A stretch of DNA of 64,000 bases. Source: Eledone cirrhosa (lineage: Eukaryota). Positions within the stretch are counted from its first letter, which is position 1, and every line of letters starts with the position of its first letter. Under the pieces are notes generated by a model. That model ran no database searches, was not told where the DNA came from, and saw only the letters and a program-made list of their open reading frames with translations. The stretch spans positions 91,822,001 to 91,886,000 of the forward strand of contig OZ024743.1 of the NCBI GenBank assembly GCA_964016885.1, read 5' to 3'. Made by a program: the position numbers and the translations under genes. Of this stretch, positions 22,873 through 62,090 are shown one piece after another.

Positions 22873-23034
22873 GGAAAACGACAATTTATAATTTTTTTTT
22901 TCATTATAATCATCTCTTTTCCACATATTCATCCCTTTAATATAACCTCTCCTTTTGTTCTTAATTAATTCATTAATTTTTTTTAATTTATTTTAATCTA
23001 TCTCTTATATAGTTAATTATTGGTATCGGTTATA

Positions 23035-23220
23035 GTTGTTTCTACTTTTGGTACAAGGCCAGCAATTATCCCAGTGCATTACTGGTACTTTATTTTATCG
23101 TCCCCGTAAGGATGAAAGGCAAAGGTAACCTCCGCGGGATTTGAACTCAGACCACAAAGGGCCGTTACTCTATGCTGCAAAGCATGGCGTCCGACCCTCT
23201 ACTGATACTGCCAATCCACT
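23035..23220 (-). mobile_element. tRNA SINE (main family)
   Basis: Reverse complement of the SINE core. Confidence 0.88.
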
Positions 23221-23619: not shown

Positions 23620-23682
23620 CTTTGCTTCTGAAGAGCTGAGGCTATCATAACTGAGTCTTCAGCAAAATATGTATAACGGAGT
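23620..23682 (+). ncRNA. Degenerate hammerhead ribozyme
   Basis: CTGAAGA-GCTGAGG..CTTCAGC-AAAA (GAAA mutated)-TATGTA-TA; stem I weak. Confidence 0.45.
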
Positions 23683-23751
23683 TTTAAATATACTTGAATC
23701 AACTGAATATAACCTCGATATTTTATTAATATATATATATATATACTATAT

Positions 23752-23962
<211 letters not shown>

Positions 23963-23970
23963 TGTGTGTA

Positions 23971-24700
23971 CGGGTATAAATTTATGGTACCCATTTACGT
24001 GTGGTGTATTTAGGCAAATAACTTTGTGTCTACTCTCGAATTTTTAGGTCGAAATATCCCGAATTCGAATTCTAAACAGCATCCTAATTCTATATCACTG
24101 TCTAATTTCCTGTTGGCATTTAATGTCCGGAAAGGTTTTAGGTACTACCATGGATTACTGTCACACCGTATTTGCCATGGTACTTTGGAGACGAGAGTCG
24201 AATGCTACCATTCTATTCTACAATGATTCGAGACGGATTTTCTCTAATAACCGATTTTTTCATTTACTTGTCAATTTGTGTTTGACTTGAGATATGTTGG
24301 TTGAGTTCTTATGGAGGGACCGAGGTATAGAATCTCGGCTCCTACCCACCACGTAAATTTCTGAACCAGTGGGCAATCGGTTGACGGTATTTTGATGATG
24401 GGTAGAGATTTCAGTTACTAACGTACTACTGTGTCGCCTGTTTCATTTACTGCCATAGACAACATGGACTGGAATCGAATTCTGTCGATCGATTGGTTAT
24501 TGATTAGGCGAGACCCGCTGATAAAGCCATATACGCCGATTGTGCATTACTGCATCATATATGCAAACAATAGATGCTGCAGGCTCTCTTGCTGCATTAA
24601 GTATGGCCGAAACTCGACTACAGGTATAAATTTATGGTACCCATTTACGTAAGTGTGTTATATTAAGGCAAATAACTTTGTGTCTACTCTGGAATTTTTA
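23971..24700 (+). mobile_element. 650-bp retrozyme-like or non-autonomous PLE unit with terminal direct repeat
   Basis: 23971-24046 repeats at 24621-24700; the repeat starts at the HHR cleavage site. Confidence 0.7.
24513..24625 (+). ncRNA. Hammerhead ribozyme with long stem II (partly mutated)
   Basis: ACCCG-CTGATAA-AGCCATA...TATGGCC-GAAA-CTCGAC-TA|CAGGT; the upstream copy has the perfect partner CGGGT. Confidence 0.68.
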
Positions 24701-24865
24701 CATAACCTTGCCTATTGAGTACGGTGAGATACAACCGGTACTAGCAGGGAAACCTTAATCTAGGTCCGTCAATTTATATATACATGGGTTCACATACAGA
24801 AACTCTTACTCTCACACAGAGGAAGCTAGACAAGTAGCTTACACAAGACATTTAGTAACACGCAC

Positions 24866-25552: not shown

Positions 25553-26630
25553 CGTGGTGTGGCGTGGCGTAGCGTATTGTGACGTGGTATAGTGCGGCGT
25601 GACATGGCGTAGTGTGACGTAGTGTGGTGTGGCGTGGCATGGCGTAGTGTGACGTAGTGTGGTGTGGCGTGGCGTAGCGTAGTGTGACGTGGTATAGTGT
25701 GGCGTGGTATGGCGTAGTGTGACGTAGTGTGGTGTGGCGTGGCGTAGCGTATTGTGACGTGGTATAGTGTGGCGTGGTATGGCGTAGTGTGACGTAGTGT
25801 GGTGTGGCGTGGCGTAGCGTATTGTGACATGGTGAGGCGTGGTATGGCGTAGTGTGACGTAGTGTGGTGTGGCGTGGCATGGCGTAGTGTGACGTAGTGT
25901 GGTGTGGCGTGGCGTAGCGTATTGTGACGTGGTATAGTGTGGCGTGGTATGGCGTAGTGTGACGTAGTGTGGTGTGGCGTGGCGTAGCGTATTGTGACAT
26001 GACATGGTGTGGCGTGGTATGGCGCAGTGTGACGTAGTGTGGTGTGGCGTGGCGTAGCGTAGTGTAACGTAGTGTGGTGTGGCGTGGCGTAGCGTATTGT
26101 GACATGGTGAGGCGTGGTATGGCGTAGTGTGACGTAGTGTGGTGTGGCGTGGCATGGCGTAGTGTGACGTAGTGTGGTGTGGCGTGGCGTAGCGTATTGT
26201 GACGTGGTATAGTGTGGCGTGGTATGGCGTAGTGTGACGTAGTGTGGTGTGGCATGGCGTAGCGTAGTGTAACGTAGTGTGGTGTGGCGTGGCGTAGCGT
26301 ATTGTGACATGGTGTGGTGTGGCATGGCGTAGTTGTGTGAGGTGGCTTCGTGTAGCGTGACGTCAGGTGGTGCAGTGTGATGTGGCATAGGGTAGCGTAT
26401 TGTGACGTAGCCTATTGTGACGTGGTGTAGTGTGGCGTGGCGTGACGTAGCATAGTATGACGTGATGTGGGGTGACGTTGTGTAGCATAGTGTGACGTGG
26501 TGTGGCGTAGGAGTTGTGACGTGGTGTGGTGCAGTGTGACGTGGTGTAGCATATTGTGACGGGTTGTGGTGCTGTGTCGTGTGGTATTACATGGTGTGGT
26601 GTAGCGTATTGTGACGTGGTGTAGTGTGGT
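25553..26630. repeat. Pentamer-based minisatellite (GTGGC/GTAGT/GTGAC) with higher-order units
   Basis: Seen directly; source of the HATPHYVTLR ORFs. Confidence 0.92.
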
Positions 26631-34776: not shown

Positions 34777-35828
34777 GCATATGAGAGTACCCAGCATATG
34801 GGAGTACCCAGCATATGGGAGTACACAGCATATGGGAGTACACAGCATATGAGACTACCCAGCATATGGGAGTACCCAGCATATGAGAGTACCCAGCATA
34901 TGAGAGTACCCAGCATATGAGAGTACCCAGCATATGGGAGTACACAGCATATGGGAGTACACAGCATATGAGAGTACCCAGCATATGAGGGTACCCAGCA
35001 TATGAGAGTACCCAGCATATGAGGGTACCCAGCATATGGGAGTACCCAGCATATGAGACTACCCAGCATATGAGAGTACCCAGCATATGGGAGTACCCAG
35101 CATATGAGAGTACCCAGCATATGGGAGTACCCAGCATATGAGAGTACCCAGCATATGAGAGTACCCAGTATATGGGAGTACCCAGCATATGAGGGTACCC
35201 AGCATATGAGAGTACCCAGAATATGAGAGTACCCAGCATATGGGAGTACCCAGCATATGAGAGTACCCAGCATATGAGAGTACCCAGCATATGAGAGTAC
35301 CCAGCATATGGGAGTACCCAGCATATGAGAGTACCCAGCATATGGGAGTACCCAGCATATGAGGGTACCCAGCATATGAGAGTACCCAGAATATGAGAGT
35401 ACCCAGCATATGGGAGTACCCAGCATATGAGAGTACCCAGCATATGGGAGTACCCAGCATATGAGGGTACCCAGCATATGAGAGTACCCAGCATATGAGA
35501 GTACCCAGCATATGGGAGTACCCAGCATATGAGGGTACCCAGCATATGAGAGTACCCAGCATATGAGAGTACCCAGCATATGAGAGTACCCAGCATATGG
35601 GAGTACCCAGCATATGAGAGTACCCAGCATATGGGTGTACCCAGCATATGAGAGTACCCAGCATATGGGAGTACCCAGCATATGAGAGTACCCAGCATAT
35701 GGGAGTACCCAGCATATGAGAGTACCCAGCATATGGGAGTACCCAGCATATGGGAGTACCCAGCATATGAGAGTACCCAGCATATGAGAGTACCCAGCAT
35801 ATGGGAGTACCCAGCATATGGGAGTACC
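34777..35828. repeat. 17-bp minisatellite AGTACCCAGCATATG(A/G)G, about 60 copies
   Basis: Seen directly. Confidence 0.96.
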
Positions 35829-38780: not shown

Positions 38781-39604
38781 ACCCAACTCTATGGGCACTA
38801 TCTCACCACCACCACGACCAACCCACGACCACCGCAACAACCACCATCCCACAAACCCCACCACCCCACGACCATAACCACCACCACCACCACCACTACC
38901 TCATGATCACCCCCACCTCCACCACTACCGCAACCCACGGCCACCACCCCACCACTAGCACCATCCCACCTCCCCACCACTAGCCCCCCCCCCCACCACT
39001 ATCCCACGATCACCTGCACCACGACGACGACGACGACCACCACCACCACCACTACCATCCAACCACCACTGCCACCACTCCGCACTACAATCACTGCTCT
39101 CCTATATTGTTATAGGATGAGAATAACAATCAAAACAAGAAAAGGTTTTTATTTAGTAAGCCAGTTGTTCCCGAGATTTTCACAGTCATTGATCCCTCTT
39201 ATTCAAATGAATTTCCCGACGGAATCCCAACCCCGTGATGCACTTATTTCCCTCCCTGATTGTTATACGGCGAGGATCACGATCGAAACAAAAGAGCGTC
39301 ATGTTTCTTGAACATATTTCTATGGACCCCCAATATCTGTGGCCCTGAAGAAGGCTGTGGCTACAAATCTTCTGCTATGAGTAAAGAGACTCTTCTATGA
39401 GTAAAGACACCCTTCGGTCACGAATTACCATAGGATTTGCACCTAGAAAGTTGCCCACCGGAAAACAATTCTGGGCAAGGTTGTTTGTGGAAGACCAAGT
39501 CAGCTTAGCATCAATGACGCCGCAACTCATTTCTACAAAAATAGAGAAATAAAATAAATAAATAAATAAATAAATGAATATATATATATGTGTGTGTGTG
39601 TGTA

Positions 39605-39689
<85 letters not shown>

Positions 39690-39762
39690 GTAATAGCAAA
39701 ACAAACAGTACAGTACAAAGAAGAAATATATTAGTTTAATGCATGAAATAGCCGAAAAAGGG

Positions 39763-39798
39763 TCTTAACGTTTCAGACACTAATCCTTCATCAGAAGA
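39763..39798 (-). ncRNA. Ultra-minimal hammerhead ribozyme
   Basis: TCTT-CTGATGA-AGGATTAGTGTCT-GAAAC-GTT|AAGA; palindromic AACGTT. Confidence 0.78.
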
Positions 39799-39949
39799 GT
39801 TAGAAATAGAAGATAAATAGAAAGTAAAGAGTGATAAGAGGAAGAAACGGGGCAAATGAGAAAATAATTGGGGAGAAAAAAAGCACATGTGCATATTCAG
39901 TCGGCCATATGTATGTATGTTATATCTCTTTCTCTTAATTTCGAGTATA

Positions 39950-41898
39950 TTTTTTTGACCGGCCACCTTCCTGGTGGCAAGGTTGTAAAAGAAAAGAAAT
40001 TGTCATCCCTTGAATCGCAAGAATGTTTTGCAAATTTTGAAGGTGCCAGCTATCGCAGCCATTTGTAGATTATGAATTAGGGAGCTGCGCTTTTTGTCCG
40101 CAAATCCAAGTTCAATCATACTTTGGTCCAAGCGGGTTGGTATATAACCCGTAGCTCCAATAATGATGGGTATGAAGCTAAAGGTGTATCTTGGATACTG
40201 GATTTGTAAACTCCTCATCAATGGTCCGTAGATGTCCTCCTTCTCCTGTATTTTTCTGACAAGGTTTACATCAAGTGTGCAGCTGATCTCCACAACAGAA
40301 CACGTTTTCAATGTGTGGTCCCAAACAACAATATCAGACCGGTTGTGCTTTAATTTGGTGGCAGTTTTTATTTTCAGGTTCCACCAGTATTCCTTAGTGC
40401 CATCTGTCTCAATATATTCTTCCTCGTTTGTTGTTAATTTTGTTTTCCGAAGTGCGTTCCAGATGGTTCTAGCTATCCCATCGTGTCTCATGGGGAGGTA
40501 GTAGTGAGATGACATTCTTTCGCAGCTGGCAACAATGTGGCTTACATCCTCGATCTTTGTTTTACATAGCCTACATTTATTGTCAGCTGCTGGCCCTCCT
40601 CTTTTGTGCAGCAGATATTTGGTAGGGAGTTCTTGTTCCTGTATTGCATAGAGATATCCCCCAAGGTGTGATGTCATAAACTTGTCGGAACTCCATGCCA
40701 GGCTTTTTGAGTGGTTTATCCCCTCTATGGTCTGTGTTTTACGCCTCAAGTATCCATGCACAACTTTTTCTGTAAATTGGTCAATTTTTTTATCTTGTTT
40801 GAACATTGAATAGGATCTACGATTTCTCTGGGTGAGAGATTTATATCAGGCTTTATTCCATATCTCTCCTCCAGATCAGTCGCTATTCTAATGATATTTT
40901 TTTTTTCATGCTCATAAACCTGGGCAAGATGGTTGCCAACCTTTTTCCTCTGTTGAAGGTGTTGCTTCAGTGTTACTATCCGGGTCTCATATGTTATTAA
41001 TATTGATTTTAGACCCCGGCCACCTTCCTTGCGTGAGAAGTATAGCCTATCCACATCACCATTGATGTTAAAGTTCCCAGTAACACTGAGAAGTTTTCGA
41101 GTTCTAACATCCATCTCACTTAGTTCTTGCAATGACCAGTTCAGCAGGCCAAATGTTGGCGTTAGAATTGGCACAGCATAAGTATTGTGGGCAATGTATT
41201 TGTTGTATGCTGACAGTTCTGATGACCATATTTTCTTTACTCTTCTGAGGTATTCAGTTCTGGTTCTCTCCTTATTTATGGGTCCATCATATCTGACATT
41301 CTCATCCTGTCCAAGATATCTGTAGTTGTCACCTGACTGCAGAGGTTGTATTGTCAGGCCGTTCATCTCTAGATTTCTAGAGGAGGGCACAGCTCTTCCA
41401 CGTTTTATTGCCAAATATGCACACTTGCACTCACCAAATTTCATTTTGATGTCGGTTGAAAATTGTGTAATGAGGTCCAATTGTTTCTTGATGTCATTGA
41501 TATTTGCCCCATACAACTTCAGGTCATCAACAAAGAAAAGATGGGAGATACTTCTGGGCCCACTTCTTTGTCCACCTTGTTTCCTGAGTAGGTAAGATAG
41601 TGGATTCAGTGAGAGAACGAAGAGTAGCACTGACAAGCTATCACCCTGAAAGATGCCCTTCTGGTAATGTATCTTATCAGTCTTAACTTGCTCCTTCTCA
41701 CCTCTAAGGATCAAATTGGTGTACCAGTTCTTGGTCAGGCGTTCAACAGCAGCTACCAATGGTTGTGGGACTTTAGCTAACTGTAAAGCCTTAATAATCC
41801 ACCCATGAGGTACACTATCAAATGCTTTTTGATAGTCCAGCCACACCACAGTCATGTTTCTGCGATTCTTTGTTGTTTTTTCCTGAATCATTTTGTTG
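39950..41898 (-). mobile_element. 5'-truncated R4/NeSL-like non-LTR retrotransposon (RT, CCHC finger, RLE)
   Basis: WLDYQKAFDSVPH, GIFQGDSLS, LFFVDDLKLY, YRYLG, GGRGL; CRLC..H..C, RHD, HNRSDIVVWD, VVEISC; one frameshift near 40800. Confidence 0.92.
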
Positions 41899-41973
41899 TA
41901 TGTATGTATGTATGTATGTATGTATGTATGTATGTATGTATGTATGTATGTATGTATGTATGTATGTACCTAT

Positions 41974-44104: not shown

Positions 44105-44718
<614 letters not shown>

Positions 44719-52860: not shown

Positions 52861-53166
52861 TTATTTCATTTGTCTTTACATCTTTCATTTTTTTTTCTTT
52901 TTTTTCCTTCCTATTTTAACTGTTTCGCTGTTTTTTATTTTATATTTTCTCTCTCTCATTCTCCGCTCTCTCTCTCCCCTCTCGCTTCCCCTCTCTGTCT
53001 CCCTCGCTCCCTCTCTCCATCTCTTTCTCACTCTTCGCTCTCTCTCCCCCTCTCCCCATATCGCTATCTCTCCCTCTCTCTACCTCTCTCCCTCTCTCCC
53101 CCTCTCTCTCTTTCCCTCTCACTCTCTCTTTTTCCTTTTCCTTTTCTCATCCCCTCCTACACTTTT

Positions 53167-53199
<33 letters not shown>

Positions 53200-53398
53200 A
53201 TGTCTTTATCTCGCTCTTTCTCTCCTTTCTTTATTTTTCTCACACACACTCACATACACACACATACAAACACACATACACACTCACACACATATGTATA
53301 CATAGGTACATACAGACATGTACAGCGTTTAGTTTCCCCACTTTTTCTCTCATCTTTAAGTTTTCTTTGTCACCGCCTCTCACCCATTTTCTCTCCCC

Positions 53399-53438
<40 letters not shown>

Positions 53439-53529
53439 ATCTCGCTTCCTCTCTCCCTCTCCATCTCTCTTCCTCTCTCCCTCTTTCTCTTCTTCATTGT
53501 TCCTCTCTATATATCTATCTATCTATATC

Positions 53530-56510
53530 AAAAATTAGTGACCTGCTTAGTCAACCTTGACAAAACCCATAGACAGGGACCCGGCTACTGGAAGCTGAAC
53601 TTGTCGTTACCGACATGCAAAGCCTACAGTAGACGGATTAGCACTTTAGTTAAGCAGCACTTGACGGGGGCCATTGTCAACAACAGATGGTGGTACTCTC
53701 TCAAGAGGGCAGTTAGATTAGACTCGATAGGTTTTAGTAAAGAATTAGTGTTAGATAGAAATAAGACCGAAAAGGAACTGGTAGATAAAGTAGAAGAGGC
53801 ACTTGGGAGTGGCAACGTAGCCAGCGTGCTAGCGACGAGAACGGCCTTGGACCAGTTCTTCGACGCAAAGCATGAAGGCTGCGTTGTCAGAAGCAAAATA
53901 CGTGCTCTGGGAAACGAGGGAGCCAAAGCTGTTAGCTGGGCCCGAGTGACGGAGGCGAAAAGTGGCAACAAGTCCACGATTCGGTCTTTGAAGGACCAAG
54001 ACGGACACGTGATACGTGAGCCGAAGCAAATGTGCGCGGCCTTTCAGCGGCACTTTGCTCAACTGTTCGGGCAGGGCGCCGCGCCGGGAGGGGCTATGGA
54101 TTTCGGTCCATACCTCGACGGCCTACCGCGACTCTCGGACAGCGAGGCGAAGTTCTGCAAAAAGCCGATTTCGGCCGCTGAGATAGGGGACGCGCTGAGC
54201 CAATGCGGCAAACGCAAATCTCCAGGTCTCGACGGTCTACCCTACGAATGTTACGTAGCAATGCCGGACTTGTTCTCCGATCTCCTGGAAGCGGTCTACT
54301 GCAACTGGCAGCAGAACGGGAGAATTCCCAGTTCTGTGACCAAGGGCGCAATCACGTTACTCAGGAAGCACGAGAACAAGGGGGATGACATAGGCAACTT
54401 CCGGCCCATAACTCTACTGAACACAGAGTTACAGATTTTGGCCAAGGTGTTGGCAAAGAGGCTGGCGCTTGTCGTCGAAAATCTGGTGGGAGAAGCGCAG
54501 ACATGCGCAATCCCGACCAGGTCCATACACGACAACCTCCACCTCATGTGATACATCATAGAGAGGGTAGGGTGTAAACCCGGCTTCGGTGGGGCCCTGA
54601 TCAACTTGGATCAGTCTAAGGCTTTCGATAAGGTTGACCATCGTTAACTGGATGCGGTGCTCGAGGCGGCAGGCTTCGGACTCGTGTTCAGGGGCTGGAT
54701 TGCTGCAATGCACAGCAGCAACATCTGCTCAAGGGTCAAGGTGAACGGCTACCTCTCGGAGCCGTTCCATATCACGCGATCCATCCGACAGGGATGCCCT
54801 CTCTCCCCCTTCTGTACGTACTGACTCTCGAGCCACTACTGCGGAAGTTGGAGCTATTGTAGGGAATCCCTTTGGGACCTGGACTGCGAAAAGCAGCGTC
54901 GGCCTACGCCGACCACGTGACAGTAGTGGCGTCGAGCACCTCGCAAATCGGGGAGATCGGCACCTTACTGGAGGAATACGAAAGGTTCACAGGAGCCAAG
55001 CTGAACCGGGACAAATCCGTCGGTCTGCAACTCGGCGAGTGGAGAGGTAAACCGATGCCTTCCGATGGCGTCGTCGGACGCTGGACGGAAGGACCGGTAA
55101 ATCTGCTCGGGGTCTGGTTTGGTCCGGACCTCCAGGTGGAGAAGAACTGGAACGAGGTGACGGCCAAGGTGTTTGCGCTCATCCAGAAGTGGGCCGAGTG
55201 CAAACAATCATTGAAAGGTCGAGCGGAGGTGGCGAACACTTTTATAGCGTCCGCCATCTACTACCGCTTGACCGTCGTGCCTTGTCCAGCCAAAACGCTC
55301 ACCAAAATGGAGCGCGCGCTCTTCCAATTCCTTTGGAAGAAACGGACTCCTTTGGTGAGAAGATCCATCTGCTGCCAACACCCTTCAAACGGAGGGCTGG
55401 GGTTGCTGTGGCTGACGATGCGCAAACACGCGCTCAGGCTGCGGCATCTCCACGTATTCCTCACCAGACAACAGGTGTGGGCCTCGTTCGTGAGGCGATC
55501 CTTCCCACGACTCGTCTCGCTGATCGAGCTGCAGTCCTGGGTCAAGCAAAGACCGAGGAAAATGGGCGACTGGCACATCGAATGTGCTCAGGCGCTCACA
55601 GTCCTCTGGCAAACGGACCCGGCGATCAGTGGAGACTCCACTTCGATATTCTATAGAGGGTTGGTCCGCAGCAAGTGCGACGACACGCTCGGAGAAACTC
55701 TAGGCGTAGAGGAGGACGAACTGGCCAGTCTCTTCGGTAGGACCTTCCGCCAGGGACCAATGGAAAACTTCTAAAAGTTCCTGGCCTAGCAGTGTTACCG
55801 AGGAGCTCTACCAGTTCGAGACAAGCTCTACAGACATGGGCGCCCGGGTAGGGACTCTTCGAAAAAGATCTGTCCGAGATTCGTGCGCGAAGAGGAAACC
55901 GTCGCGCACGCATTTGTACACTGCCCGGGCGTTACCGACCTGTGGGGCTATGTAGAACGACTATTGTCGCGGGTTGGACCAATTCAGTTGACCACCGAGT
56001 CCATTGTCATGATCAAACCGCCACCCTCCTTCAAAACCGAGGGAGAGGTGGTTTTCCTATGTGTTATGGCTATGGTGAAAGAGGTTATATGGTGGACGAG
56101 GTTAAAAGGGCTGAGGTCAGACACCTTTCTCTCCTGCGAACAACTGATTCGTTTTTTCAAATATCATTTTGGAAGAAGAATGAGGATGGAGAGAGAGGTG
56201 CTGTACCCCAGCAAATTTTATAAAAGGTGGGTGAATGTGGCAAAGATGGCCCGAGTGGTTGGGCCTTCTCTCTAGCCTGTAGGTTGAGGAAAAAGAGGAA
56301 GAGAGGAAGGGAGTTTGGTGCTCCTGGAGATGAGGGTTGTACATTTTTTCGGGGTGTGTACAACCCCTGTGTAACACCTCCCCCCTATTGGGGATATCAA
56401 TTGTTATTTGTTATTTTATTAATAGTTTTATTTTCATATACCTGTATGTAAACTCCCCATTTGTATTTGTCCCCTTCTTTTGTGCCCTTGTGGCTAATAA
56501 AGAAATTTAT
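53530..56510 (+). mobile_element. Tx1/L1-type LINE copy A, 5'-truncated, ORF2 disrupted
   Basis: GPGYWKLN, KSPGLDGLP, NFRPITLLN, LDQSKAFDKVDH, RQGCPLSP, YADH, GGLG, C..EETVAHAFVHC; AATAAA then ATCT repeats. Confidence 0.92.
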
Positions 56511-56705
56511 CTTATCTATCTATCTATCTCCTCGAGTATTGGAGATATTACGTGTTAACAATAAATGTTTGTCTGTATTCTTGCGTTATTGTGTTAATTA
56601 ACCCCCTTGCCTGGGTCTTCGGACATTAGGGTTAATTTATTTCACCCCTTTTGGGGTGAAATTTTTCATCTTAAAAATCTTGTAATTGTCTCTACGCTAG
56701 TGGTA

Positions 56706-58443
56706 ATGGAAGCCACAGGTAACGATGACACGCCCACTAAACAAACTGAAGGAGAACGCGTAGCGGAGGCAACAAGCCTCCCTACTGAAAGAATAATAAT
56801 TATTAGAAACATTGAAAAAAATGGAGCCTAACCCTAATGAAAAAAATGTGAAAAATATTGACTCGGAGAAATTGCCAACATTAATGGATGCCGTTTCGAC
56901 TTTTCACGGCGCCACACCCACCAGCAAAGGTGAAAGAGAACTAGTAGCTGTGACTACAGGTCTCTCGGATACTGAAAATATAAGTTAACAATTTGAAAAA
57001 ATGGAGTCTAACCCCAACGGGGAAAAAAATGTGAACGCATACACCAACATAAATAACACAAACACAACAAAAAATTAAAATTGTAACAACAAAAAACAAG
57101 AAAACCACATTTCGACAAATGTAAACAGAGAGGGGGCGAACAAAATGACGTTCGCGTAAAGCATAAAAAAAACTATCGTGTACGAACCTATTGACATTTC
57201 GAACTTGGCCCAACAAATGGAAAATGCACGGAAGTATATAACTTTGGAGGAGAATGGTCTATTTTCTTTAAATTCACCCCCAGAGCTAAAAAAGGAAAAT
57301 AGCTTAAAAACTATTATTTATAGGACAATATCAAACAAAACCCGTAAGCCAGTACAACTCACACAGACAGAGATTGAACTGGCGTTAAAAGATCATCTGA
57401 AAAACATTGTATACATTCGGAAGGATAGACTCTACGGTAGTCTATCCATCCGAATGAAAGATAAATTGACGGCCGAAAAACATTCCCTGGCCCCAATTGT
57501 GTCCCCCTTATTTACCTTCTTCCCCACTTATTTGGGAAGAAAAACACAAAGATTGACCATACACAATATCGATCCAGATATTGATTTCTGGGCGGTTCTG
57601 TGTGGCCTCCTCGACTTGAAAGAGGATGCAGTAATTTCGGTAGGTAAGTCTTCCAGCAACGTGTTCGGTGGAACTAGCCTGCAAGTTCTGGTGCAAATGC
57701 AGCCAGAACGAATTGCTAGGATCCCCGACCGCATATTGCTGGATGGGCTTGCCTACTTACACATCACAGTGGAGGGTAGACGACCCGCTTGTTACCTCTG
57801 TGGTGGCAGAGGTCACCTGAGGGCTGCTTGTTCCCAAGCAAACAAAAAAACACCGATTTTGCCCACACCAACAACTACACCACTAACAACACAACCTCCA
57901 CCACCACCACAAAAACAACTAACACGACAAGTTAAAACACAACTGAAAACAATCCCCCCCCCCACACACACACACAGAAAACAAATACAATAACACCCAC
58001 ACCACAAACATGAGCCGAAAATGAACCCCTCCCCTCGAATACAGAAGACGACCCCCTTTCGTCGTCAGACGAGGGGGGGGGGGGGGACACACACTTTCAT
58101 AAAGTTAAAAGAAAAAAAAGAAAACACACCACAGGAACACAAATACAAACAACCCCTCCCCAAGACATAACACAGACATCAACACACAAAAACATACAAC
58201 AAAAAACATCACACAAAAAGAAAAATTTGCATATACTTACATAAATACAATAAACAAAAAACTGTTAAACATTATTTATAATAACAACTTAATAAAAACC
58301 GAAGGTTCGAATTTCGCACAAGCAACGGGGCTTCCCCATCTAAAAATGATAAAAGCCCCAATGGACATTTACAAAACGTTAAAAGACACTTTTAAAGAAG
58401 ACGTGGGGTCCTCCTGCGTCAGACCCATTAACCGTGTTTCCTA
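56706..58443 (+). pseudogene. LINE ORF1 (gag-like CCHC knuckle), frameshifted
   Basis: VEGRRPACYLCGGRGHLRAAC in ORF 57178-57993; boundaries approximate. Confidence 0.8.
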
Positions 58444-58610
58444 AAAAATCCTCCCCCCAGACACCCACACAACTCCAAACACCCAACCCTACCACACACT
58501 GATGCCCCTACACTTCCACAAACCACCACCCCACCCAACAACCCATCCCCCATTGTGCGGCCGGTCCCCGGGACGCAGAGAGGTAAGTGCCTTTTCTCTT
58601 TACCACCAAC

Positions 58611-61600
58611 ATGGCTGTGTTGAGAGGTTGTCTAAATGCGCGTGGCCTGGGCTCACCTTGGAAGCAAGCAATGCTTCTAAATGACATAAGGTCACGATGT
58701 ATAAATGTGATGGTTATTTGCGAGGCCCGGATCAGCAGCGTACGACAGCTGGCCCCCACCTTTAATGACTTTGAGATGCACGCATCTCTGTGTCAGCCCG
58801 GAGGTGGGGGGGGGGGGTTGTCGTTCTGCTGCAAAAACATCTGGGTCTTGCTACACAGACGGTACACTTGGACCCGGAGGGTCGACTAGTGGTTCTGGAC
58901 ATTGGCAGTGGTGAAGGCGGAGTTTTTAGGCTGGTCGCCGTCTACGGCCCTTTTGGGTCAACGCGGCCGGACTTCTTCCATCGTCTGGAGACTTTTCTAG
59001 GGATGTCCCGTTCCTTGCTTTTAGTGGGGGACTGGAATGGTATCCTAGATGCACGTTGGGACTATGTAGGGGCATGTCCTGATAGAGGGGTTGTAACAGC
59101 CTCAAGGAGTTAATCGGCCGATTCGACCTGGCCGATAGATATCGACTAGATTTTCCGACTGTGCCAACCTGGACTTGGAGAAACCATAGCGGTCAATCTA
59201 GATCGTACCTAGATAGATTCTTAGTTAGAAATAAGGATAGGGACTTTTTAAGTTGTCCAAAAATGCTCATGGTTGGCTATTCAGACCACAAGTTAGTGAC
59301 CTCCGTGGTCAACCTTGATAGAACGCATAGACAGGGACCCGGTTACTGGAACCTCAACTTGTCCTTACCGGCAAGTAAAGCTTACAGGAACCGGATTAGT
59401 ACATTAGTTAAGGTTGACGGGCGCCATCGTCAACAGCAGGTGGTGGGGCTCTCTCAAAAGAGAGATTAGAGTAGCTTCAATAGGAGTTAGTAAGGAGTTA
59501 GCCTCAGATAGAAATAGGAAGGAAAGGGAGTTGGTAGATAGTGTAGAAGAGGCAATTAGAAGCGGCGACGTAGCCAGAGTGCTAGCGTCGAGAACGGCCT
59601 TGGGCCAGTTCTTCGACGCGAAACACGAAAGCAGCGTTGTCCGAAGCAAAATACGTGCTCTGGGAAACGAGGGGACCAAAGCTGTTAGCTGGGCCCGCGT
59701 GACAGAAGCCAAAAGTGGGACTAGATCCACTATCCGGTCTTTGCGAGACCAGGATGTACGGGTGACCCTTGAACCTAAGCAAATGTGCGAGGCCTTTCAA
59801 AGGCACTTTGCCCGATTGTTCGGAAGGGACGAGGGGCCGGGTGGGGATGTGGACCTCGTTCCATACCTCGACGGCCTGCCGCGTCTTTCGGACGAGGAGG
59901 CGAAGTCCTGCGAGAGGCCGATCTCAGCTGTTGAAATAACTAATTTTAGGCCCATAACACTTCTAAATGCAGAGTTAAAGATTTTGGCCAAGGTGTTAGC
60001 AAAGAGGTTGGCGCTTGTCGTGGGCAACCTGGTGGGAGATGCGCAGACATGCGCCATCCCGTCCAGGTCCATTCACGACAACCTCCATCTCATGCGATAC
60101 ATCATAGAGAGGGTTGGGAACGAACCCGGCTTTGGTGGGGCCCTGATCAACTTGGATTAATCTAAGGCGTTCGATAGGGTCGACCATCGTTACCTGGATG
60201 CGGTGCTAGTGGCGGCAGGTTTCGGACCCGTTTTCAGGGGCTGGATCACTGCCATGCACAGCAGCCGCATCTGCTCGAGGATCAAGGTGAACGGCTACCT
60301 CTCGGAGCCGTTCGAAATCACGCGGTCCATCCGACAGGGAAGCCCTCTCTCCTCCCTTCTGTATGTATTGGCCCTAGAGCCACTGCTGCGGAAGTTGGAG
60401 TTGTTACAGGGCATCCCTTTGGAACCGGGATTGCGGAAAGCGGTGTCGGCCTACGCCGATGATGTGACAGTAATGGTGTCAACCGCCTCGGAAATCGGCG
60501 TGATCGGCACCTTACTGGAGGAATACGAAACGTTTACAGGGGCTAAGCTGAACCGGGACAAGTCAGTCGGTTTGCAACTCGGCGAGTGGAGGGGAAAATC
60601 GATGGCCTCCAACGGCGTCGTCGGACGTTGGACGGAGGGTCCGGTGAAGTTGCTCGGGGTCTGGTTCGGGCTAGACCTCCAGGTGGAGAAGAACTAGGGT
60701 GAGGTTTTCGAACAGTGTGTTTGCGCTGACGCGGAAGTAGGCTGAGTGCAAACTATCCCTGAAAGGTTGAGCGGAGGTGGCGAACGCTTATATAACGTCC
60801 GTCATCTATTACCGCCTGACCGTCGTGCCTTGCCCAAGGGAAACGCTCACCAAAATGGAGCGCACTCTTCCAATTCCTTTGGAAGAAGCGGGCTCCTTTG
60901 GTGAGGAGATCCATCTGCTGTCAACACCCTTCGAAAGGCGAGCTGGGGATGCCGTGGCTGTTGATGCGTAAACATGCATTAAGGCTACGGCACCTCCAGG
61001 TATTCCTCACCGGTCAACCGGTGTGGGCCCCGTTTGTGAGGCGAGCCTTTCCGAGACTCGTCTCGCTCACCGAGCTGCAGTCCTGGGTGAAGCAAAGACC
61101 GAGAAAACTGGGCGCCTGGCACACCGAGTGTGCCCAGGCGGTCACGGCTCTCTGGCAGGCGGACCCGGCTATCGGTGGAGACTCCACCTCGTCATTCTAT
61201 AGAGGGCTGGTGGTTAGTAGGTGCGACGACGCCCTTGGACAAGCCCTAGGCATGGAGGAAGACGAACTGGCCAGCCTATTCGGGAGGACATTTGGCCCGG
61301 GACCTATGGACAAATTCCAGAAGTCCCTGGCTGGCAGTGCTATCGAAGGGCGCTGCCCGTTCGAGAAAAGCTCTACAGACACGGGTGCCTGGGTAGGGAC
61401 CCCTCGAAAAAAATCTGTCCCAGATGCCTGAGCGACGAGGAAACTGTTGCGCACGCATTGGTACACTGCTCGGGCGATGCCGATCTGTGGGGCTATGTCG
61501 AACGACTGCTGTCACGAGTGGGACCAATCCGGTTGACCACTAAGTCCATTGTAACGATCAAGCCCCCCCCCCCTTCAAAAATGAAGGAGAGGCGGTCTTC

Positions 61601-61831
61601 CTCTGTGTAATAGCCATGGTGAAAGAGGTGGTATGGTGGACACGTTTGAAAGGGCTGAGGTCGGACACCTTTCTCTCCGGCCAACAACTGGTCCTTTTCT
61701 TTAAATGCCATTTTAAGAGAAGGATCAGAATGGAGAGAGAGGTGCTGTACCCCAGCAAGTTTTATGAAGGGTGGGTGAAAGTAGCGAGAATGGCCCGTGT
61801 GAATGGGCCCTCTCTCTTTATCAGCCTGTAG
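58611..61831 (+). pseudogene. LINE ORF2 (APE endonuclease, RT, zinc finger), disrupted
   Basis: CLNARGL, VYGP, LLVGDWN, TWTW..SYLDRF, SDH, YADD, CPRC..ETVAH..C; ~210-bp deletion near 59938 relative to copy A. Confidence 0.9.
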
Positions 61832-62090
61832 GTGGAAAGGTGGAAGTTCAAAGGAGCACCCCCCTCTCTGCGCTCCTAAAGAAAAGGGTTGCACACTTTT
61901 TCGGTGGTGTGTGTAACCCCCAAAACGCCTCCTCCCTATCGCGGACTGTATTGTTAATTTTATATTTGTTATTTGTTTTTTACTCGTTCCTTTATGTAAA
62001 CTCCCCCCCCCCCCTTGTATTTGTCCCTTTCATGTGTGCCCTCGTGGCAAATAAATAGAAATCTATCTATCTATCTATCTATCTATCTAT

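What the first reader, a model, noticed from the sequence alone, without database searches (positions are those of the whole stretch)
23971..24700. 650-nt non-coding unit running from one ribozyme cleavage site to the next (retrozyme-like)
Seen: the element begins after (TG)n at TA|CGGGTATAAATTTATGG, and the same sequence recurs 650 bp later immediately after the HHR cleavage position. The first copy's CGGGT perfectly complements stem I ACCCG. There is no meaningful ORF. Known: retrozyme monomers are released by HHR cleavage and circularise. Inference: this is a reverse-transcribed monomer plus short overlap from a circular or tandem RNA, with an unusually long stem II.
Basis: partly seen in the sequence, partly recalled or inferred. 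Interest (0 to 1): 0.72.

Follow-up and report, generated by a model that had tools for sequence, protein, structure and literature searches.

The report
Decayed 899-base hammerhead retrozyme copy
This is an old, damaged copy of a roughly 900-base non-coding repeat that carries a hammerhead-ribozyme motif and was likely spread by Penelope-type jumping genes; its 650-base spacing comes from a deletion seen only in this copy, so it is an ordinary new member of a known class.

Summary
The direct repeat is real: starts at 23971 and 24621, 650 nt apart, the second just after a type I hammerhead motif. But 650 nt is not a unit length. The stretch is one copy of a dispersed family (roughly 600 or more copies, about 8-9% from subfamily consensus) whose cut-to-cut unit is 899 nt. 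This copy lacks unit positions 77-327, a junction found in no other copy searched, and its ribozyme has three core/stem changes. Family copies share a fixed 3' end about 151 nt past the cut (window 24775), mostly sit in (TA)n, and have scattered 5' ends; 32 of 36 read through the cut. That is the Penelope (PLE) footprint. The fixed end resembles the long end of a young Hydra-clade PLE in the genome (motif fitted after the fact). The consensus folds strongly (z -5.2) and long copies wrap into a second unit without an ORF, so it works like a non-LTR retrozyme. Cleavage, expression and circles are untested. A weak excess of starts near the upstream cut (4 of 22) did not replicate clearly.

The parts
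23968..24046 (+). Upstream partial repeat: family unit -3/+1 to +76. 5' junction lies in (TG)n and is ambiguous between -5 and +1
24046..24047 (+). Private deletion junction: unit 76 joined to unit 328, 251 nt lost (3' hairpin, fixed-end signal and splice-like segment of the upstream repeat)
24047..24512 (+). Non-coding body, unit 328-791, about 91% identical to consensus; includes the long predicted hairpin (unit about 638-786) just 5' of the ribozyme
24513..24517 (+). Hammerhead stem I, 5' strand (ACCCG)
24518..24524 (+). Core box CUGAUGA, here with G8 changed to A at 24523
24525..24608 (+). Unpaired A, 7-bp basal stem II with two predicted branch hairpins (82 nt), unpaired C before GAAA
   Evidence: domain II z -3.1, 4 of 300 shuffles as low
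24609..24620 (+). GAAA, palindromic minimal stem III (family ACUCGAGU; G16.2 changed to C at 24618) and cleavage triplet; predicted cut after 24620
24621..24625 (+). Stem I 3' strand (family CGGGU; here CAGGU)
24626..24775 (+). 3' segment to unit +151: post-cut hairpin, ACCGGT palindrome, terminal hairpin (about 24733-24767) and the fixed family 3' end ...GTCAAYTT followed by AT-rich flank
23729..23969 (.). (TA)n/(CA)n/(TG)n microsatellite in which the copy sits; no target-site duplication can be read

Best explanation
The stretch is a decayed, internally deleted copy of a dispersed 899-nt non-coding repeat with a type I hammerhead motif, likely a non-autonomous Penelope-dependent element (non-LTR retrozyme) that was likely copied by a Hydra-clade reverse transcriptase. 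Shown: 899-nt unit, fixed 3' end about 151 nt past the predicted cut, scattered 5' ends, wrap-around into a second unit, (TA)n flanks, no ORF, three subfamilies, private 251-nt deletion, three ribozyme changes here. Inferred: a master locus made a structured RNA longer than one unit (or a circle); a PLE protein bound near the terminal hairpin, nicked AT-rich microsatellite DNA and began reverse transcription inside the RNA at +151; it read back through the uncut or re-ligated ribozyme and stopped at a mostly random place, sometimes in the previous unit. The family ribozyme probably cut as a dimer through its palindromic stem III. This copy went slightly more than once round, lost 251 nt by template jump or later deletion, and is now likely inactive.
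For: 899-nt period in a 36-copy consensus. Only the window spans the 76|328 junction among 40 scored of 58 candidates. 3' ends at +145..+168 in 53 of 70 and 66 of 69 loci; TA-rich 3' flank in 51 of 70 and 48 of 69. 5' ends spread at about 2-5 per 1000 nt at risk. Intact consensus hammerhead; 57 of 90 copies keep the core, 19 of 90 core plus stems. Subfamily differences avoid the core and stems: 0 of 45 against 58 of 566, P=0.009 (1 of 45 with the larger gamma set, at the unpaired position 887). Consensus folds at -266 kcal/mol, z -5.2, none of 40 shuffles as low. Terminal motif TAGTY-N1-4-TYAAHYT in 49 of 69 family ends and 16 of 17 long ends of a young PLE with Hydra hallmarks (DKT, CxCX5C, CxxC/CxH), background 4 in 476 kb. 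Internal RT start and AT-rich targets are shown in vitro for a PLE (PMC11167929).
Against: No autonomous PLE shares alignable DNA with the unit beyond the short terminal motif in 80 loci examined; the motif was fitted after seeing both ends. The Hydra family found is much younger (98-100% protein identity among the 150 listed) than this family. It has two 3' ends (13 short, 17 long of 30) whereas this family shows one peak. No long tandem arrays: no two of 78 exact hits lie within 2 kb, and six of 40 two-repeat copies hold two whole ribozymes. Covariation is weak: 2 compensatory, 9 one-sided, 15 broken pairs alpha versus beta, none at family level in the ribozyme stems. The reverse strand also folds well (z -4.0). 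No A-to-G excess (2.40% against 2.61%, p=0.21). Cleavage is untested.
Confidence: 0.8

Rival explanations
1. One reading: a 650-nt cut-to-cut monomer from a circular or tandem RNA, inserted whole with a short overlap.
For: The window's 5' end falls within a few bases of the predicted cut. 4 of 22 other long copies that reach the upstream cut also stop at -3..+1, against 0.57 expected, P=0.003.
Against: Unit is 899 nt; the junction is private; 18 of 22 long copies and 32 of 36 first-pass copies read through the cut; the 3' end lies 151 nt past the cut.
Confidence: 0.04
2. The copied template was mostly a linear partial-tandem transcript, sometimes cut at its upstream ribozyme, and no circle is involved.
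For: Excess of starts at the upstream but not clearly the downstream cut. One copy (L099) has a beta-type upstream and an alpha-type downstream repeat, which one circle cannot give. For the anole PLE, unprocessed RNA was the dominant substrate in vitro (PMC11167929).
Against: The excess came from the discovery set (3 of 9); the other sets gave 1 of 13. All 10 near-cut starts keep the base before the cut, while flanks end in A in 41% of junctions, and 77 of 243 junctions begin with TA or AT: microhomology explains them equally.
Confidence: 0.4
3. The unit is an internally deleted derivative (fused pLTR and UTRs) of an extinct autonomous PLE; the ribozyme is carried along and has no role of its own.
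For: PLE-type ribozyme features (long helix II, 5-bp helix I, extra base before stem II, palindromic helix III; PMC4209133 passages). Splice-like signals at unit +178..+198 and a PLE-like end. Retrozymes derive from pLTRs in a recent preprint.
Against: No coding remnant: best tblastn E 0.03 against PLE peptides. Core and stems are spared by subfamily changes. This is largely the same class as the best explanation and differs only on ribozyme function.
Confidence: 0.3
4. A SINE-like partner of a LINE, or a DNA element, with a chance hammerhead look-alike.
For: 5' truncation and (TTA)n/(TA)n ends also fit LINE partners; Rfam gives no hammerhead hit.
Against: Wrap-around past the 3' end point into the same unit, complete core with stem I and palindromic stem III in the consensus, and a GUA/GUU cleavage-triplet variant that keeps the NUH rule.
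Confidence: 0.04

Closest known systems
Metazoan non-LTR retrozymes (Cervera and de la Pena 2020, PMC7229834: passages and Discussion read; Li, Clavereau and Pollet 2026, bioRxiv 10.64898/2026.07.22.740005: parts 1-3 of 5 read, supplements not seen)
   Same: Non-coding unit with one type I hammerhead, GC below 45%, head-to-tail organisation, dispersed monomers, co-occurrence with PLEs; 899 nt is within the 51-972 bp range of the preprint.
   Different: Longer than the 170-400 nt circles shown experimentally; only partial tandems (up to about 1.7 units), no multimer arrays; 82-nt branched domain II; old and decayed; no RNA evidence.
PLE pseudo-LTR hammerheads and PLE insertion footprint (PMC4209133 passages; PMC11167929 parts 1-2 of 4; PMC8557442 passages and section 11)
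   Same: Minimal-type ribozyme with palindromic helix III, fixed internal 3' end downstream of the ribozyme, 5' truncation, partial tandems, (TA)n targets, rare inverted arms.
   Different: No ORF; a single 3' end peak instead of two ends separated by a tail; 3' end 151 nt past the cut (about 85-92 nt in the anole element, computed from the paper's coordinates).
Non-autonomous Chlamys PLEs such as MRC1 (PMC8557442 passage)
   Same: Non-coding PLE partner forming pLTR-like repeats.
   Different: Those share 3' sequence with their autonomous family and mostly lack canonical ribozymes; here only a short terminal motif is shared with the candidate driver.

Membership tests
Type I hammerhead ribozyme | Core CUGANGA, GAAA, NUH with stems I, II, III | tested here: met
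   Met in the family consensus and in 19 of 90 copies; not met in the window copy (3 changes). Rfam gives no hit.
Type I hammerhead ribozyme | Covariation of the stems | tested here: inconclusive
   No family-level double changes in stems I-III; subfamily changes avoid them.
Type I hammerhead ribozyme | Self-cleavage at the predicted site | not testable with these tools
   Genomic 5' ends give only a weak, confounded signal.
Non-LTR retrozyme | Non-coding unit with one type I hammerhead | tested here: met
Non-LTR retrozyme | [quoted passage not shown] | tested here: inconclusive
   Six of 40 two-repeat copies span two whole ribozyme regions 899 nt apart, all decayed; no longer arrays seen; the window copy has one.
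Non-LTR retrozyme | Expressed as linear and circular monomer RNA | not testable with these tools
   No RNA holder listed.
Non-autonomous PLE | Fixed internal 3' end, 5' truncation, partial tandems | tested here: met
Non-autonomous PLE | Insertion into AT-rich or (TA)n targets | tested here: met
   51 of 70 and 48 of 69 3' flanks
Non-autonomous PLE | Two 3' ends separated by a tail; inverted arms | tested here: inconclusive
   One end peak; inverted arm in 1 of 70 and 3 of 69 loci.
Non-autonomous PLE | Sequence shared with an autonomous partner | tested here: inconclusive
   Only a short terminal motif shared with a Hydra-clade PLE; 50 other GIY-YIG loci share nothing.
Autonomous PLE | RT plus GIY-YIG ORF | tested here: not met
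   None in the unit or following it in 59 long copies.
Hydra-clade PLE (candidate driver, loci L365-L394) | C-terminal GIY-YIG, DKT, CxCX5C linker, CxxC and CxH, (TA)n targets | tested here: met
   Read from translations against section 11 of PMC8557442; the RWK motif lies outside the fetched stretch; no tree built.

The most novel reading that the evidence does not exclude
The family is one of the longest animal retrozymes, driven by a Hydra-clade PLE that recognises a short hairpin-plus-TCAAYTT(ATT)n start signal, and a share of its longest insertions, this one included, were copied from linear RNA cut at the upstream ribozyme but uncut at the downstream one. That would be a genomic record of in vivo hammerhead cleavage and evidence against an obligatory circle.
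Probability: 0.2. Interest if true: 0.55.

Novelty: new member of a known kind. Interest (0 to 1): 0.27.

Why it matters
As it stands the finding is ordinary: one dead copy of an undescribed but typical hammerhead-bearing PLE partner, and the striking 650-nt cut-to-cut geometry is an accident of a private deletion. The family is a modest extra test case for two open points in the papers read: which PLE clade mobilises animal retrozymes (here a candidate Hydra start signal), and whether the template is a circle or a linear, partly cut RNA. Its age makes it a poorer test than the young 310-470 nt families that earlier scan notes describe in the same genome.

Tried and rejected
Rfam at gathering and at E up to 10: no hammerhead hit. 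Folding the window's 650-mer: z -0.98; ribozyme region z 0.12. Coding remnant: no ORF, best tblastn E 0.03. Parent PLE by DNA similarity: none in 30+20 GIY-YIG loci of 150 listed or 30 Hydra-type loci of 150 listed. RNA-editing scar: none. Covariation: an alignment of 20 ribozymes (one row given on the wrong strand) was not used; copy-level double changes are sporadic. Pseudoknot or loop-loop contact: looked for by eye, only a 4-bp candidate, not tested. Spliced copies lacking the GTAAGT-started segment: none noticed or among the joints shown. Sequencing runs: no RNA holder listed; two contig sets of unknown kind from one sample were laid and are not used as evidence. Pfam checks of the two PLE proteins failed on frame errors and were not completed. 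Two-armed insertion, common in other families per earlier notes, is rare here. Paper searches listed nothing that describes this family; Repbase/Dfam could not be checked, so it may be catalogued there.

Full report
Observation. The window shows TA|CGGGTATAAATTTATGG at 23971 after a (TG)n tract and again at 24621, 650 nt on. Upstream of the second copy lies a type I hammerhead layout: ACCCG (24513-24517), CTGATAA, an 82-nt domain II, GAAA, CTCGAC, TA, then CAGGT. No ORF of 120 aa lies within. Rfam finds nothing at gathering or at E up to 10, and the 650-mer folds no better than shuffles (z -0.98).

The family. The window lies in a 3.0-Gb animal genome. DNA searches gave 2555 and 3066 first-look candidates, of which 40 were scored each time. 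Only the window itself matched the whole 737-nt query; other main matches began at query position 76 or later. A consensus of 36 long copies has a cut-to-cut period of 899 nt, with copies 84-94% identical. The window copy aligns to unit 1-76 and then 328-899 and 1-151, so 251 nt are missing. An 80-nt junction query was spanned only by the window among 40 scored of 58 candidates. Private deletions and jumps are common in other long copies. A capture-recapture estimate gives about 600 copies spanning the cut (4 of 31 recaptured, so very rough), plus many shorter ones. Three subfamilies resolve, each 8-9% from its own consensus; the window copy is alpha.

Ends. Two pattern samples were used: 70 of 78 loci with an exact 20-mer across the cut (five more were already held, three not fetched) and 69 of 71 loci with an exact 23-mer in the 3' hairpin. 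3' ends fall at +145..+168 in 53 of 70 and 66 of 69, with TA-rich flanks in 51 of 70 and 48 of 69. For 5' ends I used 66 of the 69 (dropped: one second arm, one duplicate, one copy lacking its 3' part; four ends set by hand). They are spread smoothly; 4 fall within 5 nt of the cut against 1.9 expected (P=0.13), and 32 of 36 read through. In a third search, 100 of 141 hits were listed, and by my reading 6 start at -3..+1, the window included.

A residual signal. Among 59 long copies read by hand (and earlier loci; window excluded), 22 reach the upstream cut and 4 stop at -3..+1, against 0.57 expected (P=0.003). The idea arose from the first set (3 of 9); the remaining copies gave 1 of 13. All 10 near-cut starts seen keep the base before the cut, which a cut template would not supply, while flanks end in A in 75 of 181 informative junctions and 77 of 243 junctions begin with TA or AT. 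TA microhomology or an endonuclease that leaves a 3' A explains this as well as cleavage. I leave it open.

The ribozyme. The consensus has a 5-bp stem I, CUGAUGA, an extra A, a 7-bp basal stem II with two branch hairpins, an extra C, GAAA and the palindrome ACUCGAGU before A. These match the PLE-type features in PMC4209133 (passages). The palindrome pairs with itself at -12.7 kcal/mol, and the ribozyme fold lies 2.5 kcal/mol above the minimum, which favours a competing post-cut hairpin. Of 90 copies with the whole motif, 57 keep the core and 19 keep core and stems. Subfamily differences avoid the motif (0 of 45 against 58 of 566, P=0.009; 1 of 45 with the larger gamma set). Some beta copies have GUU at the triplet. 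The window copy has G8 to A, G16.2 to C and a stem I mismatch; from established hammerhead chemistry it is likely dead. The whole consensus folds at -266 kcal/mol (z -5.2; none of 40 shuffles as low; reverse strand z -4.0). Covariation support is thin: two compensatory pairs in the hairpin before the ribozyme, 9 one-sided and 15 broken pairs. There is no A-to-G excess.

Organisation. Long copies wrap into the same unit, up to about 1.7 units; none leads into an ORF. In 40 two-repeat copies the repeats differ by 14.7% (820 of 5587), as expected from separate decay; six span two whole ribozymes; L099 is a beta/alpha chimera. No arrays were seen.

Driver. The genome holds many GIY-YIG elements (10596 candidates). 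Fifty loci, mostly Neptune-like, share no DNA with the unit. A very young PLE with Hydra hallmarks has two 3' ends; its long end reads TAGTC-N-TCAATTT(ATT)n, like the family's fixed end. A pattern fitted to both occurs in 49 of 69 family ends and 16 of 17 long PLE ends, against 4 in 476 kb of background. This lead came from an earlier scan note. It points to the Hydra clade but not to this young family.

Mechanism. PMC11167929 (parts 1-2 of 4) shows a PLE protein nicking AT-rich DNA and starting reverse transcription inside its RNA at a stem-loop downstream of the ribozyme, with uncut RNA as main substrate. The family's footprint fits this. PMC7229834 (passages and Discussion) shows circles for 170-400 nt retrozymes and proposes PLE mobilisation; the 2026 preprint (parts 1-3 of 5; supplements not seen) ties retrozymes of 51-972 bp to pLTRs. 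Whether the template here was a circle or a linear partial tandem cannot be told from these data; no RNA holder was listed.

Verdict. Observation partly confirmed, interpretation partly supported. A new member of a known kind; four paper searches listed no description of this family, and repeat databases were not available. Interest 0.27.

Noticed in passing
window 23628-23672 (+): A second, unrelated minimal hammerhead-like motif (CTGAAGA, paired stem, AAAA for GAAA) about 55 nt before the (TA)n tract; another at 44354 (+). Probably ends of other PLE-type elements.
   Followed up: no
L365-L394 (for example L382): Very young Hydra-clade PLE: longest listed open frames about 713 aa, 150 listed copies 98-100% identical in the protein query, 65801 first-look candidates, two 3' ends about 85 nt apart, a degenerate hammerhead core.
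   Followed up: partly
L061-L090, L230-L247: Neptune-like PLE families carry a hammerhead-like motif with U3 and A8 in place of C3 and G8 (TTGANAA ... AACCGGTA) near their 3' ends; the 899-nt unit also has an AACCGGTA at +109..+116.
   Followed up: partly
family unit +178..+198 (absent from the window copy; L033, L316): Splice-like arrangement: pyrimidine tract and CAG, a 13-nt stretch with ATG, then GTAAGT; no spliced copy noticed.
   Followed up: partly
L099; L161: L099 has a beta-type upstream and alpha-type downstream repeat. L161, like the window, starts beside the cut after a (TG)n tract and then jumps internally.
   Followed up: partly
window 39375-41969 (-) and 52920-62029 (+): Broken LINE-type reverse transcriptase remnants (RVT_1, zf-RVT, zf-CCHC hits).
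   Followed up: no
window about 23020-23220: A roughly 190-nt high-copy SINE-like repeat found in the flanks of many fetched loci.
   Followed up: no
window 25553-26330 and 34777-35828: Minisatellites with 35/105-nt and 17-nt units.
   Followed up: no
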